The translations under genes and the position numbers were made by a program. A stretch of DNA of 64,000 nucleotides from Somniosus microcephalus (taxonomy: Eukaryota), in assembly GCA_052327205.1 (NCBI GenBank), contig CM126215.1, forward strand, positions 54,622,001 through 54,686,000. Reading direction: 5' to 3'. Numbering within the stretch: the first letter of the stretch is position 1; each line of letters starts with the position of its first letter. Under the pieces are notes generated by a model. It was not told the origin of the DNA. It was given only the letters and a program-made list of their open reading frames with translations, and ran no database searches. This document shows positions 34,443 to 57,422 of this stretch, in pieces.

Positions 34443-35187
34443 GGGCCTGAACTTCCAATCGGAGGTTCCGTGCGGGTGGATGCCACCGATTGGAAAAAAT
34501 CTACGAACTTACCTGCTGGCTCCGTAGGTCCCGAGGCTTGCGATCCTGGGCCTCTGCTCTACGAAATGCGCAGAGGCTCAGGTATCCCAGGCGGTTCGCA
34601 AGTGTCCTTGGGATCACATGGGCCATGGGGAACCAATCAATCAAAGAAGGGAATCCCCCTTCACACTTTTGACAGGTCTCTCCGCATAGATCTGTCAAAA
34701 GTATGAATGGGGAATCACATAAAAAACAGTAAAACATAAAATTAAAAAAAATTAAAAAAATCACATTTAAAATGAATTAAAATGACATTAAATTAAATAT
34801 TTTAAACAAAAATGTAATTTTTGGAAAAATATTGAAGTTTTTTTATGGCGCTAAAAATAAACTTAACTTTTGTAAAAGTATTTTAAAATGATAAATCAGT
34901 GACAATTTTCTATTTTTTAAAAGTCTTATGCTGGTAAAAGCAGGCCTTACGCCTGCTTTTACCAGGTGTAAGATTTTTAAAGGCTTTCAGCAGACGGAAG
35001 TTGTGCAGAAAGCAGAACTCTCTGCCCGCAGAGGCCCATCTCCTGGGCATGTGTGCGATCTGTCAAGAGGATTCTTGACAGATCGCAAATGCTAGGTTTT
35101 AGCGCATGTGCTTCGTATGCCTAAACACGGCACTTGCGCAGCCCCTATGGATGCATACATATACGTGGGGGTCGGAAAATCCAGCCC
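34443..35187. mobile_element. PIF/Harbinger-like MITE, inverted relative to 42545-43309
   Basis: Left 200 bp align with the reverse complement of 43100-43309 (gatcctgggcct, gggatcac.tgggccatgg, ccaat). Imperfect TIRs; multiple hairpins. Confidence 0.75.
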
Positions 35188-35254
35188 TTTATCTTGCAGG
35201 CACCTCAGACCCAGAGACCCTGCTTACCCCCTCTTTCCCCACCCAGACAGAAAA

Positions 35255-35410
35255 TGTGCTGTCCAGTGTGATGCCAAACTACAAAGAACACGTGGGTCCA
35301 GTCTGTGCTGAGTTCAGTATCTCAGCCTGGACAGGGATCAGCAGCTACAATTGACCTTGGTGCTCCAAAGTTAGGGAAGGAAAAAAAACAACTTCTGTTC
35401 TCACTCATAT
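35255..35410 (+). mobile_element. Fragment of the unnamed tRNA-headed SINE-like family
   Basis: gtctgtgctgagtt...ctacaattgacc...gttagggaagg, shared with 55555-55830 and the reverse complement of 19095-19290. Confidence 0.45.
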
Positions 35411-35469
35411 CGTTCCTTCAGAGAGGAGGGGGCAAAAAGCTTAATGATTGGTCCAGCAATGTAATATAA

Positions 35470-36149
35470 CTACTTCCACCTTCGTAATATCGCTCATCTC
35501 CGCCCCTGCCTCAGCTCATCTGCTGCTGAAACTCTCATCCATGCCTTTGTTACCTCCAGACTCTCTTATTCCAATGCTCTCCTGTCCAGACTCCCACCTT
35601 CCGTAAACTTGAGCTCATCCAAACTCCTGTTGACTGTATTCTAACTCGCACTAAGTCCCATTCACCCATCACCTCTGTGATCGCTGACTTACATTGTATT
35701 CTAACTCGCACTAAGTCCCATTCACCCATCACCTCTGTGATCGCTGACTTACATTGACTCCCGGTCCGGCAATGCCTCAATTTTAAAATTCTCATCATTG
35801 TTTTCAAATCCCTCCATGGCCTCACCCCTTCCTATCTCTGTAACCTCATTCAGCCCTGCAACCCTCCAAGGTCTCTGCGCTCCTCCAATTTGGGTCTCTT
35901 TCATCGGTCTAACATTGGCGGCTGCGCCATCAGTTGTTTAGGCCATAAGCAGTAGAATTCCCTCTCTAAACCTCCGCTTCTCTCTCTACCTTTAAGTCGC
36001 TCCTTAAAACCTATCTCTTTGACCAAGCTTTTGGTCACCTGTCCTAATATGGCTCAGTGTCAAATTTTGTCCGGTTACACTCCTGTGAAGCAACTTGCGA
36101 CGTTTTTACTACGTTAAAGGCGCTATATAAATACAAGTTGCTGTTGTTG
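35470..36149 (+). mobile_element. L2 LINE 3' fragment
   Basis: YFHLRNIA.LRP and HITP.LA.LHW-type coding remnant; tail aaggcgctatataaatacaagttgctgttgttg. Confidence 0.82.
35635..35754. repeat. Perfect 60-bp tandem duplication inside L2
   Basis: 35635-35694 is identical to 35695-35754. Confidence 0.95.
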
Positions 36150-36399
36150 AGGGTTTTTGGAGCATGGAGTACTTTGCCAGTGAGTGGTTGAGGCAGAGAC
36201 CATTGCAACTGGAAAATATTTGAAGCAGAGAAAGATAAAAAGCTACAGAGAGAAAGCAGGGCAGTGGGATTAGCTTTGGGATTGATCTAGCAAAGAGCCA
36301 GCAGGCAAGTTGGGCCAGTGGCTTCCCTCTTTCCCTCTGTGTTGTAAACCTCTTTGATTCGATGGATCGCCCTCTGATCTATAGCATTCTATGCTTAGA

Positions 36400-36727
36400 C
36401 TTTTGGATGAGATGTCAGACCAAGGCCCCATCTGCCCTCTCAGGTGGACATAAAAGATCCCACGGCACTATTCGAAGAGGAGCTGGGGAGTTTTCCCCGG
36501 TGTCCTGGCCAATATTTATCCTTCAACCAGTGTCATTAAAAATTTTTTATCTGGTCATCGTCACATTGCTGTCTGTGGGGCCTTGCTGTGCGTAAATTGG
36601 CTGCCACGTTTTCTTACATTATAACAGTGACTACACTTCATAAAAAGTACTTCATTGGCTGTACAGCGCTTTGAGACGTCCTGAGGTCATGAAAGGCGCT
36701 ATATAAATACAAGGTCTTTCTTTCTTT
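36400..36727 (+). mobile_element. DeuSINE (SacSINE1-like), 3' part
   Basis: aaaagatcccacggcactattcgaagagg...gtcctggccaatatttatcc...aaaggcgctatataaat tail; matches 60697-61140. Confidence 0.82.
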
Positions 36728-37329
36728 AGACTGATTTCTGCTGAATATAAATTAAGTCGAGCAATGTGAATCACTCTTCAAGGAAAATCCCTACATGACA
36801 GGTGTAGGCTTATACTGGAACATTCTTGTAGCAGTCATATGCTAGCAAAAGTGAATTGATTCTGAAGTTGCTTTGGAGTTAAAGAACTGATTCATACAGG
36901 CACCGACAAAACCCAGTCCGAGTTTGTTGGGATTCATTTGCATGGTGATGGCATGGCATCACAATGCAGGCGCACAAAACAGTTATGTTAATTTTGGAAG
37001 CAATAGAAATATGTTTAACATTATTATCTCCTTGAGGGACAATCAAACTGCGTAACAATTTCAGGTCTGATTAATTTTTTTTTAATCCCTAACCCTGCTC
37101 AACATTGGCCTTGGGACCTGAATTGCTGAATACCATGTTCACACTAAGGTCTGCGATGTGCATTTTGGGTCTCAAACTATCAGGCGTTAGGGGTTTAACT
37201 TTTGGGTCAGCAAATGTTGATGGTCATTGATCCTGTTTATATACCATCTTTAGCAACATGGCAAAGCAGGAACTCCTTCACTGTGATGCTAAAGATGGTG
37301 TGGGAATGCACAATCTTTTGTTTTCCATT

Positions 37330-38165
37330 ATATAACTGATTTGGACATGAGCACAAACTGTGAAGAAGAATGCAAGAGATTGCAGGAAGACTGTTAGGTT
37401 TAATGGACTGGGCAGACAGGCGGCAGATGCAGATCAATGTAGAGAAATGTGAGGTGGTACATTTTAGGAAAAAGAACAGCGAACAAAAGTGTACCATAAA
37501 CAGCAAGACTCTTAAGAGTGGGGGAAACAGAGAGATCCAGGGCGATCCAGAGATCTTTAAAGGTGTGGGTGCAAGTAGAAAGGGTAATTAAAAAGACAAA
37601 TGGAATTCTCAGTTTTATCTTCAAGTACACTGAATTTGTATAAATCATTGGTTAGGCTACAGCTGGAATGTTATGCGCAGTTCTCAGCACCCCATTATAG
37701 AAAGCACATTAGGATCATGGGTAGGGTACAGTAATGAGAGGTTAGTTATTAATAAAACACACAAATTGGGCTTTTTTGCTGGGACAGAGAAGTTAAAGGG
37801 GGAAATTTAAGAGTCTTTTTTTTTTAAATTATGAAAGGTTTTGAGAGGGAAAATAATAAAAGATTGTTTGCACTGGTTGTTGAATTGGTGACAAGGGGGC
37901 ACAAATTGAGGATCATTAAAAGAACAAAAAGGGGAAGTTCGAAGTCTCCCCCCCCCAGACAGAGGTTTATTAGAACATGTAATGCTTTACTCCAAGTGGC
38001 TATTGAAGCAGAGGCTACAACATAATTCAACAGGGGATTGGATAAATTCTTTGAAAAGGAAGAGTATTAAAGTAGAAAGGGCAGGGAAATAAGATTAGAA
38101 GATAGCTCCAGTTCCAGAAACAGCACAGACACAATGGGCCTCCTCTGCTGCACATTCTATGACCA
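37330..38165 (+). mobile_element. Degraded CR1 3' RT fragment
   Basis: DWADRRQMQINVEKCEVVHF...TRGHKL..., ending in a CR1-type tail. Confidence 0.72.
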
Positions 38166-38429
38166 GTTAGGGTTCGGTACAGGAGTTAAACCATTAATAT
38201 TCTGTAGGTGGTGCTATTGAGGCCAACAGCATGGCTACATTGGTTCAAGAGGCAACAGTGATTGTGTATTCTGGCTCATGGTATTATATTATTGGAACTT
38301 TCAGATCAATTTTTTAAGAAAATCAAAACACTTTTTATTTGACCAATAAGCTATAATCTTCCACTTGTTCATCAGCAAGTATTACAATCATATAAAATTG
38401 TAAGCACATCAGTAAGCCACTGTCCCAGC

Positions 38430-39330
38430 GAAGTGATTCCAGTGTTGCTGCGCAGGAAAGGATTTTTAGCTGGAGCTACTAATCAATAGAAAAATATATT
38501 CTACCACATGGTAGATTCTAGCCACTGAACCTCAAAACTGCAGCCTGCGTATAGTTATTAAACTGTGCACCAGTTACTCTGGATTTATGGCATAGCTGTC
38601 TTATTCTGGTAATCTTAATTACCTTGCACAAAGCAGAAATATCACTGCAGGTAATGTAATGAACACTTCAATCACTAGTCAAGTAATATTCCTATTGAGT
38701 TAGCAGGATAAAGAAAATGCGAAACGTTGAGTGCATATTTTGCAAAGCAACTTGAACTTTCTAAAATTGTTCTTCCATCTACTGTAAACAGATGTCAGTT
38801 AATAACTTCTCTACCAAAATGCAGCTGAACACTGAGTACAGAACTGTAAAAGCCTGTTTGTACTATAATCTACTTGTCACAATCAGGATAAAATATGCAA
38901 AAATAGAAGTGAATGAAGGATAGCCTACCTTCCTTTCAATAACGCAATGGAAGCCTGTACCGTCTCAAGAAAGCTTTCCAAAGTTATCTGATTGCTAAGC
39001 TATATATTTATTTCTTAGAACTAATAAATCAAAGAGAAAAAAAAGAGTCCAATGATTAATGTACTTTTGGACTGTCAAGACCACTGAGGCTGTACCATTT
39101 TGATAATTGGAATCTGACAAAAGCTTGTTTTTAACATGAAAAAACAGAATTTTATTGCTAAGAGAACTGCATTTTTTACATCGGTAAACAGTTCCTATTT
39201 CCACACATTTTGCGATAGGAAAAGACATTTGCTGCCACGAGCAAGATCTCTGCAATGGTAAGGCAGCCAAATGAGCACAACCTTTTTTGATTTGCTAGTA
39301 CTTAGCTACTGGCTACTGTAAAATTACCCC
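38430..39330. promoter_or_regulatory. Candidate long conserved non-coding enhancer in POLA1 last intron
   Basis: About 0.9 kb of repeat-free complex sequence with TAATCTTAATTA and other homeodomain cores, flanked by dense TEs. Its position matches the established Dlx-responsive ultraconserved Arx enhancer in the mammalian Pola1 last intron. Not aligned. Confidence 0.55.
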
Positions 39331-39509
39331 ATTACTGTACCTTTATTGTAATAGCCAATGTTGGAAAACAACACAGGTACAATGGGTTTAAGGTTAAAAT
39401 GTTTAACATTTAATATCACTCATACAGCAACTTAAAGAATATTCACTTTAAACTAGATAGAAGGATAAACTTTCATTTATGTAATCCACGCATTTATCTA
39501 TACTGATGT

Positions 39510-39871
39510 GAGTGCACAAACTAGGCTGACACTACAGTGCAGTACTCAGGAAGTGCTGCACTGTCAGAGGTATCATCTTTTGGATTAGACATTAAACTGA
39601 GGTTTCATTTGCCTGCTTATATACAATACCGTGGAACTTGGGAGTTCTCCCAGTGTCCTGGCCAACATGCCTTCCTCAACCATCACCAACAAAAACAGAT
39701 CATCTGGTCACTCATTTATTCCGCTGTTCTTTGTGGGACCTTGGATATATCTGTTGCTATATCTGCTAATAGAACAGTGACTGCACTTCAAAAATAATCC
39801 ATTAGTTGTTAAATGCTTTAGGAAGTCCTGAAGATGTGAAAGGTGCTACATAAATGCAAGTTTTTTTCTTT
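39510..39871 (+). mobile_element. DeuSINE (SacSINE1-like), older copy lacking its head
   Basis: ctaggctgacact...gtgctgcactgtcagagg...gtcctggccaac...aaggtgctacataaatgcaag. Confidence 0.75.
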
Positions 39872-40035
39872 AGATCCAGGGTCTGTTGTAGCACGCAACC
39901 TGGTTGTTATAAACGGGACCTGAATTTAACCACAGAAGAGTTCAATTAGGTTCAACAATTGGTTTGTAGCTACAGAGTTGGATAGGGAAATTATTAAGGC
40001 CGTCTATGAAGTGCCCCCAAATTCTGGTGCACAAG

Positions 40036-40467
40036 ACTTAGGAACAGGAGTAGGCCATTTAGCCCCTTGAGCCTGTTCCGCCATTCAATTAGATCACAGC
40101 TTATCTGTTTCTCAACTCCACCTACCCGCCCTGGTTCTGGAACCCATAAAATTACCTAACAAAAATCTATCAATCTCAGTTTTGAAATTTTCAACTGACC
40201 TCGCATCAACAGCTTTTTTGGGGGGGGGGGGGGGGGGGGGGGGGAAAGAGTGTTCCAGATTTCCACTCCCCTTTGTGTGAAGAAGTGCTTCCTGACTTCA
40301 CCCCTGAATAGCAAAGGTCTCATTCTAAGGTTATGCCCCTTGTTCTGGACTTCCCCACCATAAGAAATAGTTTCTCTATCTACCCTATCAACTCCTTTGA
40401 TCATCTTCAACACCTCAATTACACCACCCCTAAATTTTTTGATATTCAAGGGAATACAAAGCCTATG
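40036..40467 (-). mobile_element. CR1 3'-end fragment
   Basis: Minus-strand peptide IEVLKMIKGVDRVD...RKHFFTQRGVEIWN; tail aatggcctactcctgttcct. Confidence 0.8.
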
Positions 40468-41112
40468 TACTAAAAGATTGTTAAAAGTGTCAACTTGGAT
40501 CACAACTATAGCCACCACATCCCTCCGAATTAAGTCTTTGGAATCTTGCACATAAGAAAAACTTGTTTTACTGAAGAGCAATTATACGGTTTTATAGTAC
40601 ATGGTTCAATTAGTGAGGGAGACATGCCATATTACAGTAGTGTATTATAGCAGTTACTTTTCTGATCCACCCATCACACAACTCAATCCTAGTGAACAGT
40701 TTTACATTTATGTTCAACAATATTGCACAAAAATTATCTTGCACAGATGGGATACAGAATTTATCCCACACATCATATTACAGAAATATTTTCCTTACAG
40801 CCAACAACAGTTATGAAAAATAACTTTGTTCATGTTCACTACCAATGACTTCAAGCTGTAACCATAGCAATTGTGCCCGTTTAATGGAATCACAAATAAA
40901 GTATGCTTGCGCTACAAAGCTATCACGATGTAATCAGCACCCAAAACCCAGGCTTTCAGAATCTGCCAGTGTCTTCTTGCTTGTCATGACACTACTTAAA
41001 AGCATTTAGCGCAAGACCTCGGCTCCATCATATTGGATCAAAATTAAGTTTATTTAAACGTTTTAATGTTTAATTCTTGCGAATTGTGTACTCGTTCATG
41101 AATAAAAATATT

Positions 41113-41185
41113 GGCTGGAATTTTGCGGCCAGCGGCGAAAGGACGGCGCTCGCCGTTTATTACGCTTACAGCTGCCCACAGACTA
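41113..41185. mobile_element. Terminal fragment of the 28291-29071 MITE family
   Basis: ggctggaattttgcggccagcggcgaa resembles both ends of 28291-29071. Confidence 0.5.
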
Positions 41186-41194
41186 CCTTTCCTT

Positions 41195-42064
41195 TGAGAA
41201 CAATCCCAGCTTCTCTAGTCTCACCTTCAAAGATTTGTGTACATACACCCCTCTTCCTGCACCCGCTTTAAAATTGTACCATTTAGTTTATATTGCCTCT
41301 CCTCATTCTTCCTACCAAAATGAACCACTTCACACTTCCGTGTGTTAAATTTCATCTGCCATGTGTCTGCCCATTTCACCAGTCTGTCTATGTTTTCCTG
41401 AAGTCTGTTACAATCACAGAAATCACAGAGAATCACAGAAACCTCACAGTGCAGATAGAGGCCATTTCGGCCCATCGAGCCTGCACCGACACATATCCCA
41501 CCCGATCCCCGTAACCCCTACACCAACACATATCCCACCCTATCCCCGTAACCCCACGTATTTAATCCCCCTAACACTAAGGGTCAATTTATCATAGCCA
41601 ATCAACCTAACCCGCACATCTTTGGACTGTGGGAGGAAACCGGAGCACCCGGAGGAAACCCACGCAAACACAGGGAGAATGTGCAAACTCCACACAGACA
41701 GTCACCCGAGGCCGGATTCGAACCCGGGTCCCTGGCGCTGTGAGGCAACAGTGCTAACCACTATGCCACCGTGCTGCCTCACTGTTTACTAAATTTCTGG
41801 GTTTTGTGTCATCTACAAACTTTGAAATTATATTCTATATACCCAAGCCCAGGTCGTTAATGTGCATCAAAAAGAGCAGTGGTCCTAATACCGACCCCTG
41901 GGAGTTACCACTGCACATTTCCCTCCAGTCTGAAAAACAACCATTCACCACTACTCTCTGCCCCTTAACCAATTTCGTATTCGCACAGCCACTGCCCCTT
42001 TAATCCCATGGGCTTCAATTTTGCTAGCATTTTTATGATGTGGTAATTTATCAAATGCCTTTTG
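41195..42064 (-). mobile_element. CR1 RT fragment interrupted by an HE1 SINE
   Basis: Minus-strand QKAFDK.PH...PQGSVLGPLLF...LQENIDRLVKWADTWQMKFNTRKCEVVHFGRKN. Confidence 0.8.
41413..41778 (-). mobile_element. HE1-type V-SINE, full length and young
   Basis: Nearly identical to 18713-19094, including the internal acatatcccaccc.atccccgtaacccc duplication. Confidence 0.88.
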
Positions 42065-42065
42065 A

Positions 42066-42300
42066 CACCAGCCTTTCAATTTTGGGAGCTGGGTTCATAC
42101 CCAGCCTGAACCGATAGGATTAACGTCTCCTCCGTCTGTAAGGGCCCGATGTAAAAATGAGTTTTGGCAGTCTTGATGCAGTTCCTAGAGGGCTTCAGCC
42201 TACAGCACAAATGACCTGCTAATTTGGTTTTAGTTGACAATGTCATTCAGACAAGCCCAAGGATTGTTGGTGTGAAGAAATGAAAATAAATGTCACATTG
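42066..42300 (+). mobile_element. LF-SINE-like repeat
   Basis: agcctttca...ctgggttcatacccagcc, atgtaaaaatgagtt...cagttcctagagg and cccaaggattg recall LF-SINE consensus blocks in the same order (recalled from memory, not aligned). Confidence 0.55.
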
Positions 42301-42544
42301 GTGCAGCAGGGGTTGGGGATCCTCTTCTGAGGTTGGGACAAAAATTAAACCTTGTCGTAATGCTATTTTCCTATTGCTCCCAGACCATGCGTGGTACAAA
42401 TAGGAATGAGAGTGCTTTTCACTTATTTTAGTTTCAAGACAGCTGTTGATCTGGAGCACATCTGGTATTTTGTACCTGTGACACAATCTGTCTGCATATT
42501 AGTCATTTATTTGAAGAACAAATACTTTAAAATTAATTTATATT

Positions 42545-43309
42545 GGCCCAGAAATTCGGGTCTCCACGCGTGAGTGCGCACGGGGTACTCACGCGTAGGC
42601 CCAACGAAAGTGCCGGTTTCGTGCATGTACTGAGCATGCGCGGGAAACCGGCACATCCGTTCCCCTGAAAGAAGGGGTTCAGAAGTCGAACGCGTGCGCC
42701 GGAGAGGCAGCGCGTGCGCATCGAACTTACGTTTTTTTTGCAGGTTTCTCCGGGAGGGTAAGTCTCCAGCAGTTACCTTGTTAAAAGCAGGCCTTGCGCC
42801 TGCTTTTTAAAAGTGTAAGTGGTGAATTAATTAAAATTAAAACATTTTTCCACAGGTTTATTATTTTTAAATACTTTGAAGAAAGGTAAGTTTATTTTTA
42901 GCCCCGTTAGAAAATGTAATAAATTTTTTCAAAAATTTAAATTATTGTTTAATAGTTATTTCATGTAATTTATAGTTTATTTTAAAAATGTGATTTAAAT
43001 TTTTTTTTTTTTTTTTGAGGTTTTAATGACGTTTTGGGGCTTATAGTATTTATAGGTTTGACAGCTCTTCCTGTCAAACTTATGAATGAAGCATTCCCTG
43101 CTACCATTGGCTCTCCATGGCCCACGTGATCCCAGGGGACGCATCGAACTAACTGCGCCCCTGAGATACGCAAGCACTGCGCGCCGGCAGTTGGAGGAGG
43201 CCCAGGATCGGAATCCCACACGGGCCCACAGCTCAACAGCTGGCGCGCTAGGTAAGTGCAGGTTGGGGGCTTGCACCCGCGGGAAGCCTCCGACCCGAAT
43301 TTCTGGGCC
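42545..43309. mobile_element. PIF/Harbinger-like MITE, best preserved copy
   Basis: Perfect inverted ends atattGGCCCAGAAATTCGGGTC (42540-42562) / GACCCGAATTTCTGGGCCaatat (43292-43314), 3-nt flanks att/aat. CpG-rich hairpin ends and AT-rich core; no convincing ORF. Confidence 0.82.
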
Positions 43310-45544
43310 AATATTGATTTTTCACTTTGCTTTCATGGAGTTTAATAGTTTCCAAAACTGGTTACCACCAATTTTCTTTCTCTCCCCAACAATCCAATGA
43401 TGTTGTCAGACTATAAACTTGTTCCAATGAGTACGTTTGGTAGTGCAGCTGGAATTTTTTTTTTGTCCTGCATGCCAGCTAATGATACAAGCTGCTGTAA
43501 TGGCTCTCAAACACTTGCACTGTGAAACAGAAACACACAGCGACACCAGTCGAGCAGATATGACAGGAAGGTGATCTGCTGCACAGCTATCTGAAGGAAA
43601 CCTTGCAAGCTGTAATCCAAACTCCAGGCTACTCGGTACGGTGATAGCATTACAGTACTGGAAAAAAATATATATGGGCACTGTAACACATTGAAATCCT
43701 GACCCAAGGTCCTTCAGCAAGGGGAAACACCGCAGTTCCAATTTTGGCACAGTCCAAGCCTCCAAAAGACCTACTGAAATCCAATTCTCCTGACAATGTA
43801 GGGGTAACAGTACACTGCAGCTCTGTGACCCCGAGGTCATACTGCATAATATTTATCAGTCAAGCCATCAGTCAAGGATTTTGTCTCTTTTAAATGAAAC
43901 TTCAACACTCCGCACTGATAGCCATTGACGGAATTCAAGTCGTGTTCACTGAACATTTTAATCCTGGAAGTCTACAGCCCATATTCTGATTGACTCCACC
44001 GGCCGAATATCTTCACACAAGTCCGATTGCTATTTAAACCGCAGTTGCAGAAAATGCTTGAGCGTTTCCTGAAATTCAACTCTACAGCTTTATGAAAATC
44101 CGGGATATTTACAATATTCAGGTGTGAAGGGTTCTAAACAGTTTCGGACTGATGGAAAATACAGAAAGCTACCTTTTAAAAAAATTGTTGTTGATCTCTC
44201 AAAGCTCAACAGTTATGGATTTCAGCACGTATTGATAGAGGAAAGGTTAATTATATTAAAAATACTTATACGTCAGGCAAGGTTAAAGCAATGCCCATTT
44301 AACACACGTACCTGCATCATGCACAGGCTTGACTTATAATTGAAAAATTGCCATTTGGGTGATGTAACAAGGCCGCTTGGAACCAGCAAAAATGTATTTC
44401 AGCAAGGAGTCAACTTCTTCAGGAGATGGTAGAAAATTGGCAAAAAAAAAATGCATGTTTAAATTGGATTCATATTCAGCTTACAGCACACTCAGTAAAG
44501 TTACTGCTGTGTGACAAAAAAACACTGATCTCTGAAATAAACAGTATGTTAGGCAGATATTTTTTTTGTTTTCCCTTTAAAAAACAGGACCCAATTTCTT
44601 TATGGGAATAAAGTCCTTTGGATATACCTCACACTCAGGAAAGCCCATCAAAACCTTAACATGTTTCGAAGTAGAATTGCAGAACCCAGATCCATGCCAC
44701 CCATATCTAGGTTTTATAGCATTGATGCAAGACTCCGACAGCACCCTTCAAACATGCAACAGTGAAGGATTGCATTTATTTTGTCTTTCATGAGCAGCAG
44801 TGCCAAGGATTACATTATTTTACCGATGGCACAAGAGAACCATTACAGGCATCGGGGGCTTGAAGCAAATGAGTTATGTTTTCCACCCATCCAGTCTGTA
44901 TTTTCAGCAGGCCATGCTTCAAAAAATATATATCTATATAAACCACGTAGCAAATACTAAGTCTGTTTTTCGTGCATTTGGCCCTGGTTTCATTCAGTTT
45001 TCTTGGCCACACAGTTTGGTAAGCAGCGTTTCCCTCCCAACATTCTTCCAGAACGCAAGACCTGTTAGCGCTTCAATTTGAAATGTCTCCATCATTTTGA
45101 AATGGTACTTCCCGCCTGTTCATTACGTGGGCTCTGATCAACGATAGACTCAAAAGGTTGTTTGTTCGCCTCTTAACACAAACCCTCGCCAATGAATGAG
45201 TATATGGTAACTGATAATTCATTCCACAACTACTCCTCGTTACAGTTACACTATATATTTTCCCTTCACTATCATCTAGCACCACATCAGGAGACCAGAC
45301 TGCCCAGATAAGGAAACTACTGGGAATGAAAATATGCAACACAATCAGCTTTTCAGGGAAATAAATATAAAGCAACTAGATAGCAAGCAACATCGGCAGG
45401 ATATGTCATATCAGCTTCAATTTTGATTATTTAACATGAAACATTTTGCATGAAAATGTATCTGGAAAATAAAAACAAAAATGACCAGTTCAAAAACATC
45501 TCCACTGAACCAAATAGAAGGTCCTTTACAGTTCCAACCCTCAA

Positions 45545-45760
45545 ATAGAAATACATAGAAGTTGCAACATGGAAGCAGGCTATTCTGCCCAACCAGTCCT
45601 TGTCAGCAGAAAATAGTTCGAATCACATTTACCCACCTTGTTCCCATATCCTTTCAATGCCTTTTCCCTCATCCATCTATCCAATCTGATCTTGAATGAT
45701 GGCATAGTTTCTGCTTCAACCACTAACCCGGGAAGTGAATTCCCTCGTTCTTGACCCCTC
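45545..45760 (-). mobile_element. CR1 3'-end fragment
   Basis: Minus-strand NSLPGLVVEAETMPSFKIRLDRWM..., CR1-type tail. Confidence 0.7.
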
Positions 45761-47433: not shown

Positions 47434-47605
47434 NNNNNNNNNNNNNNNNNNNNNNNNNNNNNNNNNNNNNNNNNNNNNNNNNNNNNNNNNNNNNNNNNNN
47501 NNNNNNNNNNNNNNNNNNNNNNNNNNNNNNNNNNNNNNNNNNNNNNNNNNNNNNNNNNNNNNNNNNNNNNNNNNNNNNNNNNNNNNNNNNNNNNNNNNNN
47601 NNNNN
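47434..47605. other. Assembly gap (172 N)
   Basis: Run of N characters. Confidence 1.
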
Positions 47606-50600
47606 AATGTTCTTTGTGCTAGCATAATTGCAGAGAATGAATAATTGATTTGACAATTGTACCAGTGGATTTCAAACAGTTATGTGCACTCTAAGAGCAG
47701 GAAGGGAGGAGAATTGGAATACTCTAAGCAGTGAAGAGGTAGGAGAGCAGCCTGTAAATTGAACATTATGAAGATGCACATAAAAAGACATTTTTTATCT
47801 CGGCAATGCAACTGAGTATAGCATACCAGCAATAATTCCAAACTAAATAGGGAAAACAGATTGTAAATTTTATATTATATATGGTTGAGGGATAATTGAA
47901 CAAAAATGATAATTAAATAATAACTGCTTAAAACCAAAATGTTAAGCAAAGCAGACAGAATTCTTCTCATAGGAACAAGGACCTTTAATTGAGAATACAT
48001 ACCACACCAACATGAATTATATAATGTTCACTTCCTCTTCCCCCACCTGCCCCACCCTCCAACTCACCTTCAATTGGATTGAATAGGATCATCCGATTTA
48101 CCTTAAGGCTGCAAATAAATGGCACTCTAGGCTGGACTGCAAGTGAAGGCTTTTAGCAGCAACATAGCACAGTGCTTATTCTGCCCAAATTTGTGCTTTG
48201 TTGCTCCAAGACACTCCATCCAGTGATCCAATTTAAAACCATCTAAAAGTTGCTTGCTAAAAGTTACAGTACTATATTCATTAACACATATTATAAATAT
48301 TTTGTTTTTTGAGAGTAAAGAATAGTCAGGGTAGCACAACATAATTAGTTCCTCCCCTTTCAAGTCACCTCTGACCATGAATCACCTGCAGCCACCTGCT
48401 CGCAACCTTGGCACCCTGTATGACCCTAAGCCGAGTTTCAGTCCATATTCACTCCACCAGAAAAAACACTTGCTGCCACCTCTGCAATATTGCCCGCCTC
48501 CACCCCAGCTCAGACAGACTTCTCAGTCACCATCCCATGATGGATATGTCCTGTTCCACTTGCAAGATACACCAACCAGAGGTGTCTGTAATGGTACACA
48601 GTCTCGGAGGCGTGGGAAGGTGGCCTGAGAGTCCTCCTGCCTACTGCCCCTGGGATCACTATCTACTACCCACCTTCTCAAATGAAGATTCCGTGCTCCA
48701 TCATGCTGAACACCACTTGAAGGAAGCACAGAGATACACATGGGTAAAGAACGTACTCCGTGTGAGGGATTACAATGTTCACCACCAAGCTTTAAGTTAA
48801 ATATGGCCTATTATTGTGATCTGATACTCAACAGTTCGAAATATCAAATATGTGCAATTCAGGAAGCAGAATGAAAATGCTGAAAACAAATGGAAGTGAC
48901 CTCAATTTTTTTTTAAATGTAGCAATTGTCGGCTGTTGTTGTCTGGACTTTAAAAGTGGCAATTCCTGTAGCGAAAGTCTTGCTAAGCAAAATTCTGCAG
49001 ACCTTGACATATTTTCAATGCAAAGCTTGAAGATTTCAAAATTAACAAATTGCACATAATGTCACTTGGCTCCAGGGAACCCCACAAGCCAGTGTCCTCA
49101 CTGGTAGGGTGGTCCAAGCAGCTTTGGCAGAGGCGGAGGAGAAAAAGCAGGAAAAAGAAATGACTACAGGCGATGTGCAGCCAGGGAGACTACTGCATTA
49201 ATCATTAATTGACAGGACTTTCACTGAACTCTGTGAAAGCGCTATTGCATGTACAGTCCTCTGGTCTTGAGTTGTAAGGGGACATTGATAAGATAAAGGA
49301 AATGGCAGACAAAATACAATGTCAACAATTGTAAGATAGTTTTAGCTGGTTCAATTCTAGCAGTAATTCTGTGCACACTTGGGGTCCCCTAAGCCATGGC
49401 CTAGGATCCCTGGACTTGGAGAACTGACGATTGCCCCTACGGGGAGAGTGACTACTCTCTATTGGGCAAACAGAAATTCTACAGCTGTAGGTTTGTCAGT
49501 AACCTGGTTCAGAGGCTCTTCAGCATGTCAAACAATGTGTCTGACAAAAAGAAACTGCTGTGAAACTAAAGGGAGATGTTACCAAGTATAAGGAATGCTA
49601 ACTACTGACCCTTAGATAAATCCCAGATAATCAGGTTTTTTAAAAAAAAGAATCTATTTGTTGCTTAAACAACATTGTTGACAAGAGTTTCTGAAGAGCT
49701 CTATAGCCACCGCCCACACCTCCCTCATTTCAGCGTAGCAGACATACTGGACTCACATAGGTCAAAGGTAACCCTTTAACATTTTTTCAGTATCTGCCTC
49801 TTATGCCTCAACACACAAAATATTTTGTCCACAATCAGTATGTAGACTCTTTCTACTCTGCAGGGCAGTGCATGGCTTTAAATCATTATCTTCCCCAATT
49901 GCACAGTTGATGTCAAACTCGGCAGGTACGGAACTGCGAATTGTTTCAAACTCATGTCCTGGAAGTAAATGGGCAACGTTCCCATCCAGTCCTCCAACTG
50001 TGTAATTTTTATATCAAAAGACAAGAATTCAACTTCAGATTTTCCAGTAAACCCTAAAGTTCTCATTGCAAACACGTTTATCAATTATTACAGTTACATT
50101 TTACAAACTGCCGGCAGAAACACCCCAAGATGATGGCGTGCCGGTCGGTCTCCTTTATAGAATTTGGGCCAGTAAATGCTCTGTGGGGGGGGGGGGGGGA
50201 AGAAACCTCACTTCTCACCCCCCCCCCTCCACAAGACAACTCTATTCAAACCGAGAAAGCAGAATGCTCTGTTGGAGAATTGTCAATGTTGCGCCATACT
50301 GTGGGGTTAAATAGGCTTTTTGAACAATATTCCTGTCCAGTGAGACGGAACATTTACATTACCTTAAGGTGTTCCCTTTAGCAGGTGGGCCAGGATTCAG
50401 CAAGTCTTGCCCATTGGGAAAGATGCATCAACACTTCCCCCCCCCCCCCAAAAAAGATGCCTTCCGTAAAAAAACAGAATTAACAAGTACCAATTAGCCA
50501 TAACAAAACATCTACAACCGAAGAAATTAAATGTACTAATTTGATCTTTTCAAATGCACCTTCCATCGTATTTACAGTACAGAAACAGGCCATTTGGCCC

Positions 50601-52683
50601 AATAAGTCCATGCTGGTGTTTATGCTTCACACCATAAGTCCGCCCACATTAGTTCCTGAAATGTAATTCAATAGAAATTTGAACAAAGGACATACTTTTT
50701 TAGCAGGGTCAGCTCAGTAACGAGTCACTCGACACAGCAACAGTGACGCACTATTTACAAGACACTTTTCTGAACTTTTATGGCATTTCAACTTTTCCCG
50801 TCGACACATTTTTCCAACAGAGGAATGAAGATGATAAATAAAATGTAGGTGAAGAACTGTAGTGAGAAGTGGTTAGCCATGCTAATAAAAAAGGCCATCT
50901 ATCGTCCATGTACTGACCTCGGACAAACCGCTTTCAGAGTAATTTTACTGCTACTCTGGATTTAACTTTACTAACTGGTAGCAATTCAGCACATCTTTTC
51001 GTACCAGCAGTTATCTAAAATGCTGCAATAATGACATCAAGAGTAGAATGGTGCGAGATTGGTTTTCTATTGTGCTGCTCAACTGGCATAATGCCCACTT
51101 TGAAAGCAATTCACTGCTCATCACTGAAATCCTGGCAGATACGACACTAAATGCCTCAACAGCTTTGCAAGAGGACCACACCATCCATGAACCAAAGCAG
51201 ATAAGGGTGCTAAATTTGTCTGGAGGAGAGAAGAAAATTGCAAATAAAAGTTCTATTGCAAAGACTTCCCAGTAGATATTCTGAACATGTTTGAAGAAGA
51301 TTTCATCCTTATAATGACATGAAAAATGACCACCTATGTCTATGGTTTAGACCAACAATTTAAATCCCACTGAACTCACTCTAATCATTTGTCAATCAAA
51401 CTAAACTGAATAAATGTTCAGAAAGATAAGGGCTTTGTAACTCACCTGTCTATTTTTTCACTACTATTACTGACATATTAATACGTAGGTTTTAAGGGAA
51501 AAAAAAACTTTTCGTTTGCCTTTACTAGTTTGATGGCATTTACCCAATACCACTTTATTCACAATACAAAATAAATTATTCAGTTATGACTACAATGATT
51601 CACCCTTGTCAAACTTTGGCCATTTTAAAACCTCAGACTCTGCATTACATGTCAGTCAAGCCAGAACAGTGCTGAGTTGTAAAGGTTCTGTAGGACTATA
51701 GATACCTTTTACATGTCTCTCAACGTGAGAAATGTAATGCTGCCCGTATTTATACACGTGCGCATACACAGCCATCAGAACAGTTTTAAGTTTTGGCCAC
51801 TTTCATTTCACAGTTCCACTTTTGGGAAATTGGTGAGAGTGGCAAGAAAAAAAAAATCAGATCAAATTTTCTTTAAATAGAGGGAGAACTGCACACACTG
51901 CAGCTCACCATTATAATGCCTGTGTGTGCCTGTAATCAATACGGATAACAGCTGTAATATCGGACCTACAGGCATGGAATTTTGCCAAGTGTTAGATGAA
52001 TACAAATAAAACTCAAAGTCCTAATGTTAAAAAAAACTGCTTAGCAAATAGTCAAAATAAAATTAGTCAGGATCAAAACGATATTCAGCCCATTATGAGA
52101 CCAGCTGTTGTAAACTCAAATGGGGAGGTTTTGTGACATCATGAGATTACCGATGAGGAAAAGCCCATTTGCTTTAATGTGGCTATAATCTTAGCAACAG
52201 GAAAATAACCAATTACAACATCAGTTCTCAGTTAATAACTGGTACTCAGAGTTACTTATTGTAGATGATAATCTACTAAATTACCAGGAATTTTAAAATC
52301 TGCTAGTTCTATTCGCCTCACAAAATTCAATAAGGTGTCTAAAGCAATATCCAATTAGACTTAAATCCCTTCATATAATAGAATTTAAAATTATTGGAAG
52401 AAAATAATCAACTTCCTTCTCCAAGTACAGGAGAAGATATTTGCTGGAACAATATATTTGTCAAAAGAACTAGGTTATCAAACAAGTTCAACTGGAGATT
52501 ATGACTAAACCTTTCAATAAAAACCTGCTCTGTAACTAACCGTAAACTCTCACACCAAATGTATCCAGGTAATTAGCCATGATTAAGGACATTTCTCTTT
52601 CCTTTAGAAATAATCTTTGGAACATTTATTTTGCATTCACTCAAGGTACATTTGGTGCACTTGTTGTCTTTACAGACCTATCT

Positions 52684-53333
52684 GGGGTAATTTTAAACCC
52701 AAGGACATATGGGCTTGGGGGCAGGTGAGGAGTTAAAACACTTAAATCTTAAACCCGACCCCAATCCACCCACTTCTGGTTTTAATGGAGGCGGGCGACC
52801 AATCCGCTCTCAGGAGGCGGGTCGGTCAGTAAAAGCTTTTAAGGAGGCTGTGAGCCGCCATTTTAACAGGTTTTTAATTTTAACCCATGAAGGCTGGGTT
52901 TCCCAGGGCTCAGGAAGCCCGACAGGTAAAAGGAGGCAGGAAGGGCCGGATCCATGAGGTAAATGCATTTACAGCACTGCTTGTGGGCCAGGAGGAGCAG
53001 GAATGTTTCTTTCAGGCCCAACAAGTTTACCTCTTTCCAGATCCTGCGATTGTACCCAGTGACCTCAGACTCTGCCCATCGCCACAATCTTAGTCTTCGC
53101 CTACCCTCCTGCGAACTCTGAGTGCTCACCCCGCACTCCCCCTCCGTCTCTCCCCCCCCCCCCCCACTCCCTTTCCCGCCCGACTCCTACCCCACCCCAC
53201 TCCTACTTACCTCGCATGTGCTCTTAACCTGCTTTCCCGCTCGACAGGCAGCCAGCCCGTCAATCAGGCTGGCTGTCGTGTGGGAAATCTGCTGAAAATT
53301 TTTTAAAGCCATTCTGCTGTTAATTTCAGGGCC
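52684..53333. mobile_element. Related Harbinger-like MITE (different family)
   Basis: Degenerate TIRs ggggtaatttta / taatttcagggcc; internal palindromes such as cagccagcccgtcaatcaggctggctg. Confidence 0.5.
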
Positions 53334-53334
53334 A

Positions 53335-53662
53335 TTTGAGCTGAAGGCATGGCCATCAATGGTGGGGCGAAGCAAGTTGGTGATGTAGAAGAAGCCAGAT
53401 TTAGAGGAATGCAGAGTTCTCGGAGGTTTTTAAGGCTGGAAAAGGTTACGGAGATGGGGCGGGTCGCGGTCATGGAGGGATTTGAACACAAGGATGAGAA
53501 TTTAAAATTTGAGGCATTGCTGGACTGGGAGCGTAGTGAACACAGGGGTGATGGGTGAACGGGACTTGGTGCGAGTTAGGATACAGGCAGTAGAGTGGGT
53601 GAGCTCAAGTTTATGGAGGGTGAAAGATGGGAGGCCGGCCCGGAGAGTATTGGAATAGTCAA
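53335..53662 (-). mobile_element. L2 fragment
   Basis: Colinear with 29520-29860. Confidence 0.72.
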
Positions 53663-54594
53663 TTACTCTGATTAGGGGCCAAATTTCAAATGTATAGATG
53701 CAACTAATTTAAAATAAATAAAAAAACAGGTGACATTCATATTCAACTTCTAATTTTTTTTATATTACTGTACACTGATTTTTTTTCCCCCTTCTATTCT
53801 GCAGCACCTCTGGAATTTGTGATTTGTTTTCCAACTCATTAAAAAGCTAGAAATCAGAAAATGTACAGAAGTTATAACTTGAAAGTATCCAACTGAATGC
53901 TTCAATAAAACTGCCCTCCCATTTACATCCTCTGTTGTGCATGTTACATAGAATAAAATACACAGAGCAGTGTGTTTCTCGAAACTTGAGCAATTCAAGT
54001 AATGTTTTTAACAAGGCAAGGTTTGTCATCACAACCCTTGCTATGCGTTAAAACTTTCCCTGTAAATTCTACATTCCCGTGCCAGAACATGCAGACCACT
54101 CTGCAGGTCTGTAACTCATACAGACACCCATTAGCTCATCTGTAAATGTCCAGCCTCTCCATCATTCTTCAACCCATACGGGTTGCCAATCATTTAAAGA
54201 AAACTTCCAATGTTCTCTTCGTAGATAGGCTCCGTCACATCTTCTCAACACAGGAAGGACACAGACCTGATTCCCGGTCTCCCCTAATGTTCCTCCACAG
54301 CTGATCCCATTCGAGGTAGAAGAGTAGTTTACAAGATAATTACAAATGAGGAAAGCCACTCAGCCCACCTTAACTCATCCACTCAGAGGCATCCTACAAT
54401 TCACCCATTGCAGCATCCAACGCTTTCTTAAATTATTCCAGTATTTTTGCCTCACTGCTCTATTTGGGAGTTCGTCCCATGTGTTGATCAGTCTGTGTGA
54501 AGAAGAATTTCCTGATATTAGTCCAAAATTTATCTTTTTACTAGTTTGAACTTATATCCCTTCATTTCTGCAATTTACTTTAAAAGTAATATTC

Positions 54595-55270
54595 TCGAGC
54601 CCCTTGCGGCCCCCCCCCCCCCGCCACCTCTTCGTCATCTGCACGTTGCCCCATGGCAAAATCATCCAAAGACATCGGGTCAGGTTTCAGGCAGGTGTAT
54701 GCTAATGACACCCAGCTCTACCTCTCCACCACCTCGCAACCCTTTCATTGCCTCTTTGTTGTTAGATTGCTCGTCTGACATCTTGACCTGGACGAACCGT
54801 AATTTCCTCCAGTTAAACATTGGGAAGAACGAAGTCATCGTATTTGACCTCCACCACAAACTCTGTAATCTTACCATTGATTCCATCCCCATACCCAGCC
54901 ACTGTCTTAGGTTGAACCACACTGATTGCAACCTTGTTGTTCCATTTGACCCTGAGCTGAGTATTCAACTCCCTGTCCTCTTCATCACAAAGACCGCCTA
55001 CTTCCACCTCTAACATCGCCTGTCTCTGCCCCGCCACACTACAGCCAATCTGCTACTGAAACCCTCATCCATACCACTGTCACATCCAACCTCAACTAGT
55101 CCAATTCTCACCTGGCCAGCCTCCCATCTTCTACCCTCTATAACATTAGCTCATCCATATCCTATTGTACACCATGCCACCCTCACCCATTACCCCTGTG
55201 CCCGCTGACCTGGATTAGCCACTGGTTCCCAAATGCCTCAAGTTTAAAATCATCCTAGTTTTCAAATTTC
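54595..55270 (+). mobile_element. L2 RT fragment
   Basis: YANDTQLY-like motif; WTNRNFLQLNIGKNEVIVF...ITKTAYFHL. Confidence 0.75.
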
Positions 55271-55554
55271 TAAGCAGCCTTACATATATTTGGGATTGGC
55301 CTAAACAAAAGCATGGTCTGTAATCATGTAAACATACAAAAATCAAACAACTCTTTATTTGGTTTTAGTTTAATTTTTCTTCATTCTTGCAGATGCTTTC
55401 TTAAAAAAAGAGTTTCATTCATGTCAGTAATTAGCTTATGACTCCAGTTATTTTACATTATAATGGCAGAGTTATGGTCTCATGATGTGCTGATGCAATC
55501 CAAATGTTCCTAAATTTACTTAGAGGTGAAAAGGAATTTCTTTTAACTGGCTTC

Positions 55555-55830
55555 AGTTCATGGGTTAGGGAGGGGAAAAATCAGTTTGGCGTCACACTGC
55601 TGATCATTATCGAGAGACCCTTGCTGCAAGTCCACAAGTGTGAATGCTGGGCTGAGGACTAGGCTCAGCTGTGATACCCCGATGATAGATTAGCTGACTG
55701 TCCTGCACGGTCAAGGTTATTGCAAGAATACTGGCCACCTAGCTGGGGTACCAGAGGACGCAGGGCATCCATGGAACTATAACGCAGCAAGGATTCAATG
55801 CCTTCAGATAAATAGGGGTGAAAGGTGGCA
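55555..55830 (+). mobile_element. Fragment of the unnamed tRNA-headed SINE-like family
   Basis: gggttagggaggggaaaaaatcag...ggctcagctgtgat...ggccac...gtaccagagg...atggaact...gccttcag; shared with 18500-19290 and 24490-24760. Confidence 0.5.
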
Positions 55831-56682
55831 AGAAGAAAAAAAATAATCTGCCAATACACGTGAATCAGATCAGATATTATCTTATTGAATGGCGGGGCAG
55901 GCTCGAGGGGCCAAATGGCCTATTCCTGCTCCTATTTCTTATGTTCTTATCCAAAAAATAAAAGTATTTTAGTGGATGTTTACTGTGAAATCCGACTGCC
56001 ACCACACCAGGCCCATAGTTAGGTTACTCAGGATATTTGACTCCCTCCCTCCAAGTGCACTTTATTTTTTGTGCATTTCATTATTTTCCTGCAAGATGCC
56101 TCTGCTCTATGAATTAAAGACCTAGATTTGCAAAGTCAGTGTAAGATAATGAAACCAATCCTTTATTAACAAGTAATTGAAGGAAATGGAATCATACCCC
56201 ACCCCAGAAAAAAAGTCAATGGTGAAAGGTATCACTTTTTAAAATCTTTAAAAATCTGCCACATCTCTACATCTTCAATAAAAAAAAATCCAGAAGAGTC
56301 CTTTGTAAATAAAAATTCTAATTCATGATTATAGAGTAGTGTGACAACACCAATATTTATAATTTTACTGTCAGCTGGCTAATGCCATTTCAGAAAACCT
56401 TCAAGCGGAAAGTAATAGGAATTTGTTTGCATCATGCAAGAGTGTGACACTGGGCGTTCAACAGTACTGAACCTGCTCAGGTTCCATTTCAAACATAACA
56501 CAATAAAAAAAAACACTCAGGAAAAAAGCCCATAAAAGGATCCAGATTTCTGTGAGAGAGAGCTAGTTTTGTGTAAACAACAGGACAATTTTGAAACAAA
56601 ATAGGTCCATGTAGACTGGGTGAATAAATGCTGTATATACACACACATTATATATATTAAAAAAAAGTTCCTCAAATACAAT

Positions 56683-57422
56683 GGGCCAGTAATTCCTGTC
56701 CCAACGCGTGAGTACGGACGGGGTACTCACGCGTGGGCCCGGAGGAATTGCCGGTTTTCAGCATGCACAGTGCGTGCGGGGAAAACCGGCATTTCCTCTC
56801 CTCTGACCCAAGGGGTTAAGAGGCGGAACGCGTGCGAGGTTTCAGGTAGCGTTTTTTGAAGAGTTGTCCGTGGGGAAAAGACTCCGGTTTTTACGTGTGA
56901 AAAAAGCAGCCGTAAGTACTTACTTTTAACAGGTAAGTGGTCTATTAAGTAAAATTAGAAAATTTTTCCACAGGTTCATTATTTTTGAAGACTTTACAGT
57001 AAGGTAAGTATTTTTAGCCCCGATTTTTTATATAATAATTTTTTTCAAAATTTAAAATTATTGTTTAAAATAGTTTTTGAGTTATTTATAGTTCATTTAA
57101 TTAGTGCAATGTTTTTTTAAATTTTCTTTCAAGTTTAAGTAGTGTTTTGGGGCCAGGAGTTTTCATGAGTGTGACAGTTTTTACTATCAAACTCATGAAT
57201 GAACTTTTGCAACCTCCCATTGGTTGCCCACTGCTCACTTGATCCCAGCCGGCTCATCGCACTAAGTACGCCGCTGGGTCACGCACGCACAGCGCGGCAG
57301 GACCTGAAGCGGGCCAGTGACAGGAAATGCAATGTGGGCCAGGATTGAAATGTCAGCACGCCGGGTAAGTGCACATCGGGGGCTTGCACGCGCGGCAAGC
57401 CCCCGAACCTAATTTCTGGGCC
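56683..57422. mobile_element. PIF/Harbinger-like MITE, same family and orientation as 42545-43309
   Basis: TIRs gggccagtaatt / aatttctgggcc, flanks aat/act; colinear with 42545-43309 over its full length. Confidence 0.82.

What the first reader, a model, noticed from the sequence alone, without database searches (positions are those of the whole stretch)
34443..57422. MITE family with four positionally conserved hairpins showing compensatory changes and a flipped loop
Seen in copies 34443-35187 (inverted), 42545-43309, 56683-57422 and fragment 19810-19929. (A) Terminal stem TTCCAATCGG/CCGATTGGAA (34453-34495) versus TCGGGGGCTTGC/GCAAGCCCCCGA (57376-57406) versus a G-T wobble version (43261-43295). 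(B) GACAG/CTGTC-type core stems at 34660-34707, 43049-43086 and 57162-57199. (C) AAAAGCAGGC stems at 34931-34965 (perfect 15 bp) and 42783-42807, where the 5-nt loop is inverted relative to the orientation-corrected 34.9 kb copy. (D) ACGCGTGAGTA stem (56704-56734; one mismatch at 42566-42596) versus ACGGGTGCGTA (19831-19859), with both arms changed. Pairing is kept while sequence drifts. Inference: selection on DNA/RNA structure or palindromic protein sites in the source elements, or self-templated arm correction. GG(G)-starting TIRs with 3-nt flanks point to the PIF/Harbinger superfamily. I do not recognise a described family with this architecture.
Basis: partly seen in the sequence, partly recalled or inferred. 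Interest (0 to 1): 0.7.

Follow-up and report, generated by a model that had tools for sequence, protein, structure and literature searches.

The report
Hairpin-rich shark MITEs with mismatched borders
These are copies of an abundant gene-less jumping DNA, likely of a shark or ray, whose mirror-image end stretches are shared with full-length Harbinger transposons and whose two three-letter borders disagree in nearly half of the copies scored, likely because letters from the old site are carried into the new one.

Summary
The elements and stems are real. The three full copies belong to three subfamilies (A, B, C) of a ~760-bp non-autonomous Harbinger (PHIS) MITE. Their ends (left ~250 bp, right ~100 bp) are shared with 3.3-5.5-kb elements that carry a DDE transposase; a Myb/SANT exon was confirmed in one. 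Corrections: there are 5-12 stems, not four; stem C is absent from subfamily C; the flipped loop is a private 38-bp inversion (1 of 1,047 tests); the G-T wobble and part of the stem-A change are CpG decay. Both-arm changes between source lineages are real for two left-end stems, show no G-T strand bias, and stems decay neutrally after insertion. This favours DNA palindromes, likely protein sites, over RNA structure. Unexpected: the 3-bp AWT duplication differs at its centre in 45 of 98 B/C copies, against 2 of 16 autonomous elements. Empty sites hold 3 bp, and one flank always equals the target (15 of 15). Likely cause: the donor's 3-nt overhang is ligated into the target, as the mPing cleavage model allows. 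The scan saw this family before on other DNA of this genome and left the borders unexplained.

The parts
34443..35187 (-). MITE copy, subfamily A (745 bp, 86% to consensus); stem D lost by an 11-bp deletion; flanks AAA/ATT in element orientation
34453..34495 (-). Right-end palindrome (stem A) of the A copy; CpG decay on both arms
34545..34582 (-).
34660..34707 (-). Stem B in the MITE-specific interior
34931..34965 (-). Stem C, perfect 15 bp, at the junction of parent-shared end and MITE interior
35052..35089 (-). Stem D3 of the A copy
42545..43309 (+). MITE copy, subfamily B (765 bp, 94% to consensus); flanks ATT/AAT (centre-discordant TSD)
42566..42596 (+). Left-end palindrome D (12-bp arms, 7-nt spacer)
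42608..42656 (+).
42777..42814 (+). Private 38-bp microinversion of the whole stem C region (up to 46 bp with the 4-bp inverted flanks); source of the 'flipped loop'
43049..43086 (+). Stem B
43261..43295 (+). Stem A; the G-T pairs are private C>T changes at 43264 and 43289
56683..57422 (+). MITE copy, subfamily C (sub-lineage C1a; 740 bp, 95% to consensus, ~25-bp deletion); no stem C; flanks AAT/ACT
56701..56737 (+). Palindrome D
56742..56798 (+). Palindrome D2
57162..57199 (+). Stem B
57376..57406 (+). Palindrome A (12-bp arms, 7-nt spacer)
19810..19927 (+). Left-end fragment of subfamily A (flank AAT, stem D intact), followed by a high-copy repeat at 19948-22508; rest of the element not found in the window

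Best explanation
These are copies of a ~760-bp gene-less Harbinger (PHIS) MITE whose end palindromes are shared with transposase-coding elements and likely serve as two-fold binding sites for the Myb/transposase complex, and whose three-letter borders disagree at the centre in nearly half of the B/C copies scored, likely because the donor's 3-nt overhang is ligated into the new site. Shown: identity as MITE, shared ends, 3-bp AWT target in an ANAY-AWT-RTNT preference, both-arm changes between lineages in D and D2, neutral decay after insertion, a one-copy inversion, central TSD discordance with one flank equal to the target. Inferred: mobilisation in trans by these transposases; protein binding to D, D2 and A; birth of stem C by fold-back synthesis at the deletion that made the MITE; excision with 5' AWT overhangs that anneal in the 3-nt target gap, are ligated with a central A:A or T:T mismatch and segregate at replication.
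For: Partners: 96,621 first-look candidates for PF13359 in the genome; of the first 20 fetched, all 20 match the left end of B/C (65-93%) and 16 the right end (74-97%); transposase PF13359 E 6e-42, opposite-strand exon PF13873 E 1.4e-13. Palindromes: 84-89% Watson-Crick pairs over 11-12 lineage consensuses vs 15-49% slid; both-arm changes on one branch D 4 of 10, D2 5 of 18, slid 0-2; 8 of 30 pairs change on both sides, 1 of 500 shuffles; many invariant columns, nearly fixed spacers, D and A half-sites share 6-7 of 12 letters and a 7-nt spacer; G-T 20 vs A-C 17. Stem C: left arm in 16 of 30 autonomous ends, right arm in 0 of 30. Borders: 45 of 98 vs 2 of 16 autonomous (p=0.013); centre A/T swap 57 of 153 vs 0 of 16 in a control MITE family (p=0.0014); background A-T change 0.5-0.8% per site; 15 of 15 discordant B/C copies with a clear empty paralogue have one flank equal to the target, and in 13 the other reads AWT; 14 non-canonical 3-mers are duplicated exactly. 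mPing is cut at its TSD and carries donor TTA/TAA overhangs (PMC4561436, PMC11254759).
Against: No binding or transposition assay. Stem A shows 2 of 11 both-arm changes, not above slid controls (0-2). Lineages are related, so pair counts are not probabilities; rare template switches could produce the both-arm changes without selection. Stem B is kept in all MITE lineages though absent from the 30 autonomous elements, which the binding-site reading does not explain. The autonomous elements share the ends yet show far less discordance, which the model does not explain; that sample is small (16) and chosen for intact transposase matches. 'One flank equals the target' is also what point mutation would give; only the rate argues against it. 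In 6 of 16 concordant B/C cases the TSD differs from the host-repeat majority. Subfamily A is weaker (1 of 10, 4 of 6). PMC11254759 states that free mPing insertions have intact TSDs.
Confidence: 0.65

Rival explanations
1. The palindromes are kept neutrally by arm-to-arm template switching during replication or gap repair of source elements, with no selection on them.
For: Known mechanism that makes compensatory changes and spacer inversions (PMC5453318 passages, PMC8794818 abstract); explains the 38-bp inversion and likely the birth of stem C; 6 vs 2.9 both-arm events is a trend.
Against: Stem columns are largely invariant in sequence and spacers nearly fixed across lineages up to about 40% apart; inversions are rare (1 of 919; 0 of 128); mismatch repair of stems in copies is 7 of 16 changes, no clear excess; stem C decayed in subfamily C while D, D2 and A did not.
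Confidence: 0.2
2. The stems are selected as extruded DNA structures (cruciforms or single-strand hairpins) needed for synapsis or for a single-strand route of MITE mobilisation.
For: Hairpins sit about 32-37 bp from both ends; pairing is kept through changes in D and D2; stem B is kept in the interior; MITEs differ from their partners in border outcome.
Against: The partners carry a DDE transposase; 14 non-canonical targets are duplicated exactly, which needs a staggered double-strand cut with fill-in; invariant cores fit sequence read-out better.
Confidence: 0.12
3. The element is a structured non-coding RNA or small-RNA precursor under selection.
For: Stable folds; RNA-seq reads cover the family on both strands; D2 alone has G-T 10 vs A-C 2.
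Against: Overall G-T 20 vs A-C 17; both strands fold alike; no Rfam hit; inserted copies mutate in stems at background rates (GC 2.3% vs 1.9%, AT 1.3% vs 1.4%); the wobble pairs cited are CpG decay.
Confidence: 0.04
4. Border discordance arises after insertion, by pairing of the two ends and correction, by gene conversion from other copies, or by point mutation.
For: Discordant AAT/ATT pairs are reverse complements of each other; 2 of 41 other mismatched pairs are too; subfamilies show mosaic haplotypes.
Against: The TIR mismatch five letters further in (position 8) is homogenised in 1 of 100 C copies; sub-lineage C3 keeps its position-3 mismatch in 24 of 24 copies, 9 of them discordant; no extra complementarity beyond the TSD; foreign ends are not fresher; targets GTT and ATG get an AWT partner, not their reverse complement; the rate is about 30 times the mutation background and already 11 of 34 in the 1.6%-diverged C1a.
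Confidence: 0.15

Closest known systems
Tourist-like MITE mPing with Ping/Pong (PIF/Harbinger; PMC4561436 parts 2-3 of 5, PMC11254759 and PMC2836001 passages)
   Same: Gene-less element with GG-starting TIRs, two-gene partners (DDE + Myb-like), 3-bp TSD with free A/T centre, extended target preference; staggered cut at the TSD that leaves donor-derived 3-nt overhangs on the excised element.
   Different: Target AWT instead of TWA; 760 bp with 5-12 internal palindromes; those papers describe free insertions as having intact TSDs, whereas here the centre differs in 45 of 98.
Pangu / Harbinger2 families with AWT TSD, e.g. Pangu_CGig = Harbinger-3_CGi (PMC4482050 Table S3 rows; PMC12730594 passage)
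   Same: AWT TSD confirmed by empty sites, GG ends, DDE_Tnp_4 transposase, and in Pangu_CGig a Myb domain in ORF2.
   Different: No vertebrate among the Pangu rows seen (28 of 35 places); by eye the DDE block of the partner resembles the Nuwa and animal rows of Fig. S3 rather than the algal/fungal Pangu rows; no tree was built.
Zebrafish Harbinger3_DR / Harbinger3N_DR (NuwaI-type; Sinzelle 2008 not held, seen only as cited in PMC2836001 and PMC13668399)
   Same: Vertebrate two-protein system; the Myb-like protein binds terminal or subterminal sequence; long target preference.
   Different: NuwaI TSD is CWG (PMC4482050). That its binding site is a short palindrome is recalled, not from a call.
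piggyBac (recalled; primary paper not found)
   Same: Works like it in the proposed step: donor overhang anneals in the target gap without synthesis and leaves mismatches when the two differ.
   Different: Other superfamily, 4-bp TTAA, single protein; not a member.
Chompy / AmnHarb1 vertebrate Harbinger-type repeats (Dfam names recalled; one search shows only the name Chompy in a table)
   Same: Vertebrate non-autonomous Harbinger-class repeats.
   Different: Could not be compared: Dfam and Repbase are not available here.

Membership tests
PHIS / Harbinger superfamily, non-autonomous MITE | Short, TIR-bounded, high-copy, uniform length, no known gene | tested here: met
   Median 755-765 bp in 180 full copies; 8,477, 365 and 75 exact left-end pattern matches; no transposase or Myb similarity in the interior to 30 autonomous elements
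PHIS / Harbinger superfamily, non-autonomous MITE | Autonomous partner with same ends encoding DDE_Tnp_4 transposase | tested here: met
PHIS / Harbinger superfamily, non-autonomous MITE | Second gene with Myb/SANT domain | tested here: met
   PF13873 E 1.4e-13 in L174, the one exon tested; larger ORF2 pieces of three other loci gave no family
PHIS / Harbinger superfamily, non-autonomous MITE | 3-bp target duplication shown by empty sites | tested here: met
   Empty paralogues hold 3 bp; identical in 67 of 153 B/C and 23 of 30 autonomous
PHIS / Harbinger superfamily, non-autonomous MITE | Mobilised in trans by the partner proteins | not testable with these tools
   Inferred from shared ends
PIF/Harbinger group in the narrow sense (Han 2015) | TWA TSD | tested here: not met
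   A at first and T at third position in 153-162 of 180 flanks
Pangu / Harbinger2 | ANT (often AWT) TSD | tested here: met
Pangu / Harbinger2 | Transposase falls in the Pangu clade | tested here: inconclusive
   Only a by-eye comparison with Fig. S3: NRK..HS.N motif and 23-residue spacer as in Nuwa rows and some animal Pangu rows; no labelled sequences on hand for a tree
NuwaI / NuwaII | CWG or C|TNA|G target | tested here: not met
Spy / ISL2EU | No TSD (AAA|TTT) or 2-bp AT TSD | tested here: not met
   Empty sites overlap by 3 bp
Structured ncRNA | Rfam match or one-strand G-U bias | tested here: not met
Described Dfam/Repbase family | Sequence match | not testable with these tools
   Libraries not available

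The most novel reading that the evidence does not exclude
These MITEs use an integration route of their own: nearly every insertion at a canonical AWT site keeps a donor-derived overhang (synthesis-free, mutagenic at the centre), while their autonomous partners with the same ends mostly fill in, and the MITE's hairpins are what switch the pathway. The genome would hold a very large fossil record of both outcomes.
Probability: 0.15. Interest if true: 0.8.

Novelty: new variant of a known kind. Interest (0 to 1): 0.5.

Why it matters
The hairpins alone are a modest addition: a large elasmobranch Harbinger clade with palindromic ends, in a group where PMC9179366 found no Harbinger in elephant shark and asked for other species to be checked. 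The borders matter more. How PIF/Harbinger integration gaps are closed is inferred from excision data; a natural family in which about half of the TSDs carry a foreign centre gives a genome-scale, testable read-out of donor-overhang ligation. It bears on mPing-based engineering, and it warns that TSD-identity filters would drop about half of such copies and that TSD mismatches cannot always be used to date insertions.

Tried and rejected
No-TSD (Spy-like) and 2-bp TSD readings: rejected by empty sites. Loop flip as a lineage trait: rejected. TIR-panhandle correction and end conversion as cause of the borders: tested, disfavoured. An apparent age effect on discordance (22 of 33 vs 8 of 33) was a sub-lineage confound and was not consistent within lineages. 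Parent for the MITE interior: none among 30 autonomous elements (best E 0.04). Rfam: 0 hits in the window. Sequencing runs: no RNA holder listed; two added RNA runs laid on the B copy show family-wide reads on both strands and no GT-AG joint among the 15 joints shown, 42 not shown, so splicing at the conserved GTAAGT motifs is neither shown nor excluded. An orthologous empty site was not obtained: run X2 holds the filled 42.5-kb locus and X4 does not cover its flanks; presence or absence of a young discordant copy in other runs remains open. Sinzelle 2008 is not held. Paper searches that showed no description of this family or of centre-mismatched Harbinger TSDs: (listings); most subscription papers, bioRxiv supplements, Repbase Reports and Dfam were out of reach.
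Full report
Observation. The window lies in a 6.45-Gb genome. The closest named relatives of the partner transposase are from sharks and a sawfish at 45-67% identity, so an elasmobranch host is likely. The copies lie 11-49 kb downstream of a homeodomain + OAR gene at about 4.0-8.3 kb (ARX-like is my recalled label).

Three subfamilies. Each full window copy finds its own set of relatives: B about 89-92% (5,605 first-look candidates), C 91-95% (4,656), A 79-84% (11,168). These are not copy numbers. Exact left-end patterns match 8,477, 365 and 75 times. Eleven pieces lie in 464 kb around the window. The consensuses are 57-75% identical. Of 213 long hits I kept 180 with both ends (27 A, 53 B, 100 C), dropping 26 for a missing end and 7 duplicates. 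The 19.8-kb fragment is the left end of subfamily A.

Partners. PF13359 gives 96,621 candidates in the genome, 150 scored. I fetched 40 such loci: 6 lacked one end and 4 were duplicates, leaving 30 elements of 3.3-5.5 kb. They share the MITE's left ~250 bp and right ~100 bp. L174 is 4,804 bp, with a 391-codon transposase frame (PF13359, E 6e-42, tested on its near-identical duplicate L173) and a Myb/SANT exon on the other strand (PF13873, E 1.4e-13). The MITE interior (about 270-660) is shared by all MITE lineages and has no detectable match in these 30 elements. On a tree of left ends the MITE lineages fall among different autonomous lineages; exchange of ends with active partners is the likely reason (inference).

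Hairpins: what holds. Lineage consensuses carry 5-12 stems against 0.3-2 in shuffles. D, D2 and A lie in the shared ends. Across 11-12 autonomous and MITE lineage consensuses they are 84-89% Watson-Crick paired, against 15-49% for slid partners. On 11 real sequences, 8 of 30 pairs of D and D2 change on both sides (1 of 500 shuffles; slid 0-3). On a tree, both arms change on one branch in 4 of 10 (D) and 5 of 18 (D2) events against 0-2 slid; for A it is 2 of 11, no better than slid. Many stem columns never vary, spacers are nearly fixed, and the D and A half-sites share 6-7 of 12 letters and a 7-nt spacer, centred 37 and 31-32 bp from the ends. Mismatches are G-T 20 and A-C 17 and both strands fold alike, as expected of DNA palindromes. 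In this superfamily the Myb-like protein binds terminal or subterminal DNA (PMC13668399 and PMC2836001, passages), so two-fold protein sites are the likeliest reading; this is inferred.

Hairpins: what does not hold. Stem C is absent from subfamily C. Its left arm is present in 16 of 30 autonomous ends and its right arm in none; it sits where the shared end stops, so it likely arose by fold-back synthesis when the MITE was made. The flipped loop is a 38-bp inversion (42777-42814) in one copy: 1 of 919 hairpin-by-copy tests and 0 of 128 more. Spacer inversion by template switching is known (PMC5453318, passages; PMC8794818, abstract). The G-T version of stem A is two private C>T changes, and the changed arms in the 34.4-kb copy are CpG decay on both sides. 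After insertion, stems mutate like the rest; non-CpG both-arm changes number 6 against 2.9 expected (p=0.08; one copy of a distinct lineage left out). Stem B is kept in all MITE lineages, with both-arm differences between them, and has no explanation yet.

Borders. The flanks read AWT on both sides within an ANAY-AWT-RTNT preference. Empty paralogous sites in host repeats hold 3 bp, so this is a 3-bp TSD. Yet among 98 B/C copies with AWT on both sides, 45 differ at the centre (95% interval 36-56%). This holds in every young sub-lineage (11 of 34, 9 of 16, 9 of 15, 7 of 15, 7 of 16), against an A-T background of 0.5-0.8% per site. Subfamily A gave 1 of 10 and 4 of 6. Controls from the same assembly are mostly clean: autonomous elements 2 of 16 (p=0.013; identical TSD 23 of 30 vs 67 of 153); another GG-ended MITE family 0 centre A/T swaps in 16 scored of 30 fetched (11 identical). 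Of 226 insertions queried, 58 had an empty paralogue and 40 passed my filters. In all 15 discordant B/C cases one flank equals the target (11 left, 4 right) and in 13 the other reads AWT, even where the target was GTT or ATG. Fourteen non-canonical 3-mers are duplicated exactly, so ordinary fill-in also occurs. Against: in 6 of 16 concordant B/C cases the TSD differs from the host majority, which target choice among mutated host copies could explain but I did not test.

Mechanism proposed. mPing is cut in a staggered way at its TSDs (PMC4561436, parts 2-3 of 5) and the excised element brings donor TTA/TAA bases along (PMC11254759, passages). If such 3-nt overhangs anneal in the target gap and are ligated, a donor/target difference at W leaves a central mismatch at each end. 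Replication without repair then gives one donor-derived and one target-derived flank, discordant in half of the cases; 46% was seen. Outer mismatches would more often be trimmed and filled. Correction by pairing of the two ends, conversion from other copies and point mutation fit worse. Why partners with the same ends show less of it is unexplained.

Comparison and novelty. Membership in the Harbinger/PHIS superfamily is met on ends, partner genes and TSD length. The TWA of PIF/Harbinger in the narrow sense is not met. AWT with a Myb ORF2 has a precedent in Pangu_CGig (PMC4482050, text parts 1-2 of 4, Table S3 rows and supplementary file 2), while the DDE block looks Nuwa-like by eye; the subgroup is open. 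PIF-Harbinger is listed for whale shark (PMC8455134, passage) and was not found in elephant shark (PMC9179366, passages). My searches showed no description of this family or of centre-mismatched Harbinger TSDs, but Dfam, Repbase and most subscription papers were out of reach. Earlier notes of this scan describe the same kind of element elsewhere in this genome; they are not independent evidence. Verdict: a real, known kind of element; the hairpin story is smaller than proposed; the border discordance is the part worth testing.

Noticed in passing
G000 genome-wide: 96,621 first-look candidates for the Harbinger transposase domain, many of the 150 scored with intact 386-391-codon frames: a very large Harbinger expansion.
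   Followed up: partly
window 42545-43309 and 56683-57422; consensuses: Several GTAAGT donor-like motifs and a pyrimidine-CACAG acceptor-like motif around a 30-nt stretch are conserved in B and C; one donor matches the likely first 5'UTR donor of the autonomous transposase gene. No splice joint among those shown.
   Followed up: partly
window 42548: In two RNA runs about a quarter of the first mates on + begin at this place, just inside the left TIR; run X8 is strongly strand-biased over the left end. May be a clipping or reverse-transcription effect.
   Followed up: no
subfamily B copies L001-L030, L271-L300: Mosaic haplotypes; the G-C/C-G pair of stem D occurs in both paired states and in both unpaired intermediates (6 of 29 copies).
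   Followed up: partly
window 28291-28970 and 61578-62463: Two further GG-ended, palindrome-bearing repeats of other families.
   Followed up: no
window 4021-4374 and 8045-8329: Exons of a homeodomain + OAR gene (ARX-like, label recalled); the MITEs lie downstream of it.
   Followed up: partly
L011:33-1482 and L005 right flank: GG-ended MITEs cluster: two control-family copies 76 bp apart beside a B copy, and a second element start next to another B copy.
   Followed up: no
L172, L173, L174; L178, L179; L307, L308: Autonomous elements duplicated together with their flanks (segmental copies), some beside LTR-retroelement frames.
   Followed up: no
window 32417-33760: 448-codon reverse-transcriptase frame (PF00078) of a repeat that had few matches among my fetched loci.
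   Followed up: no
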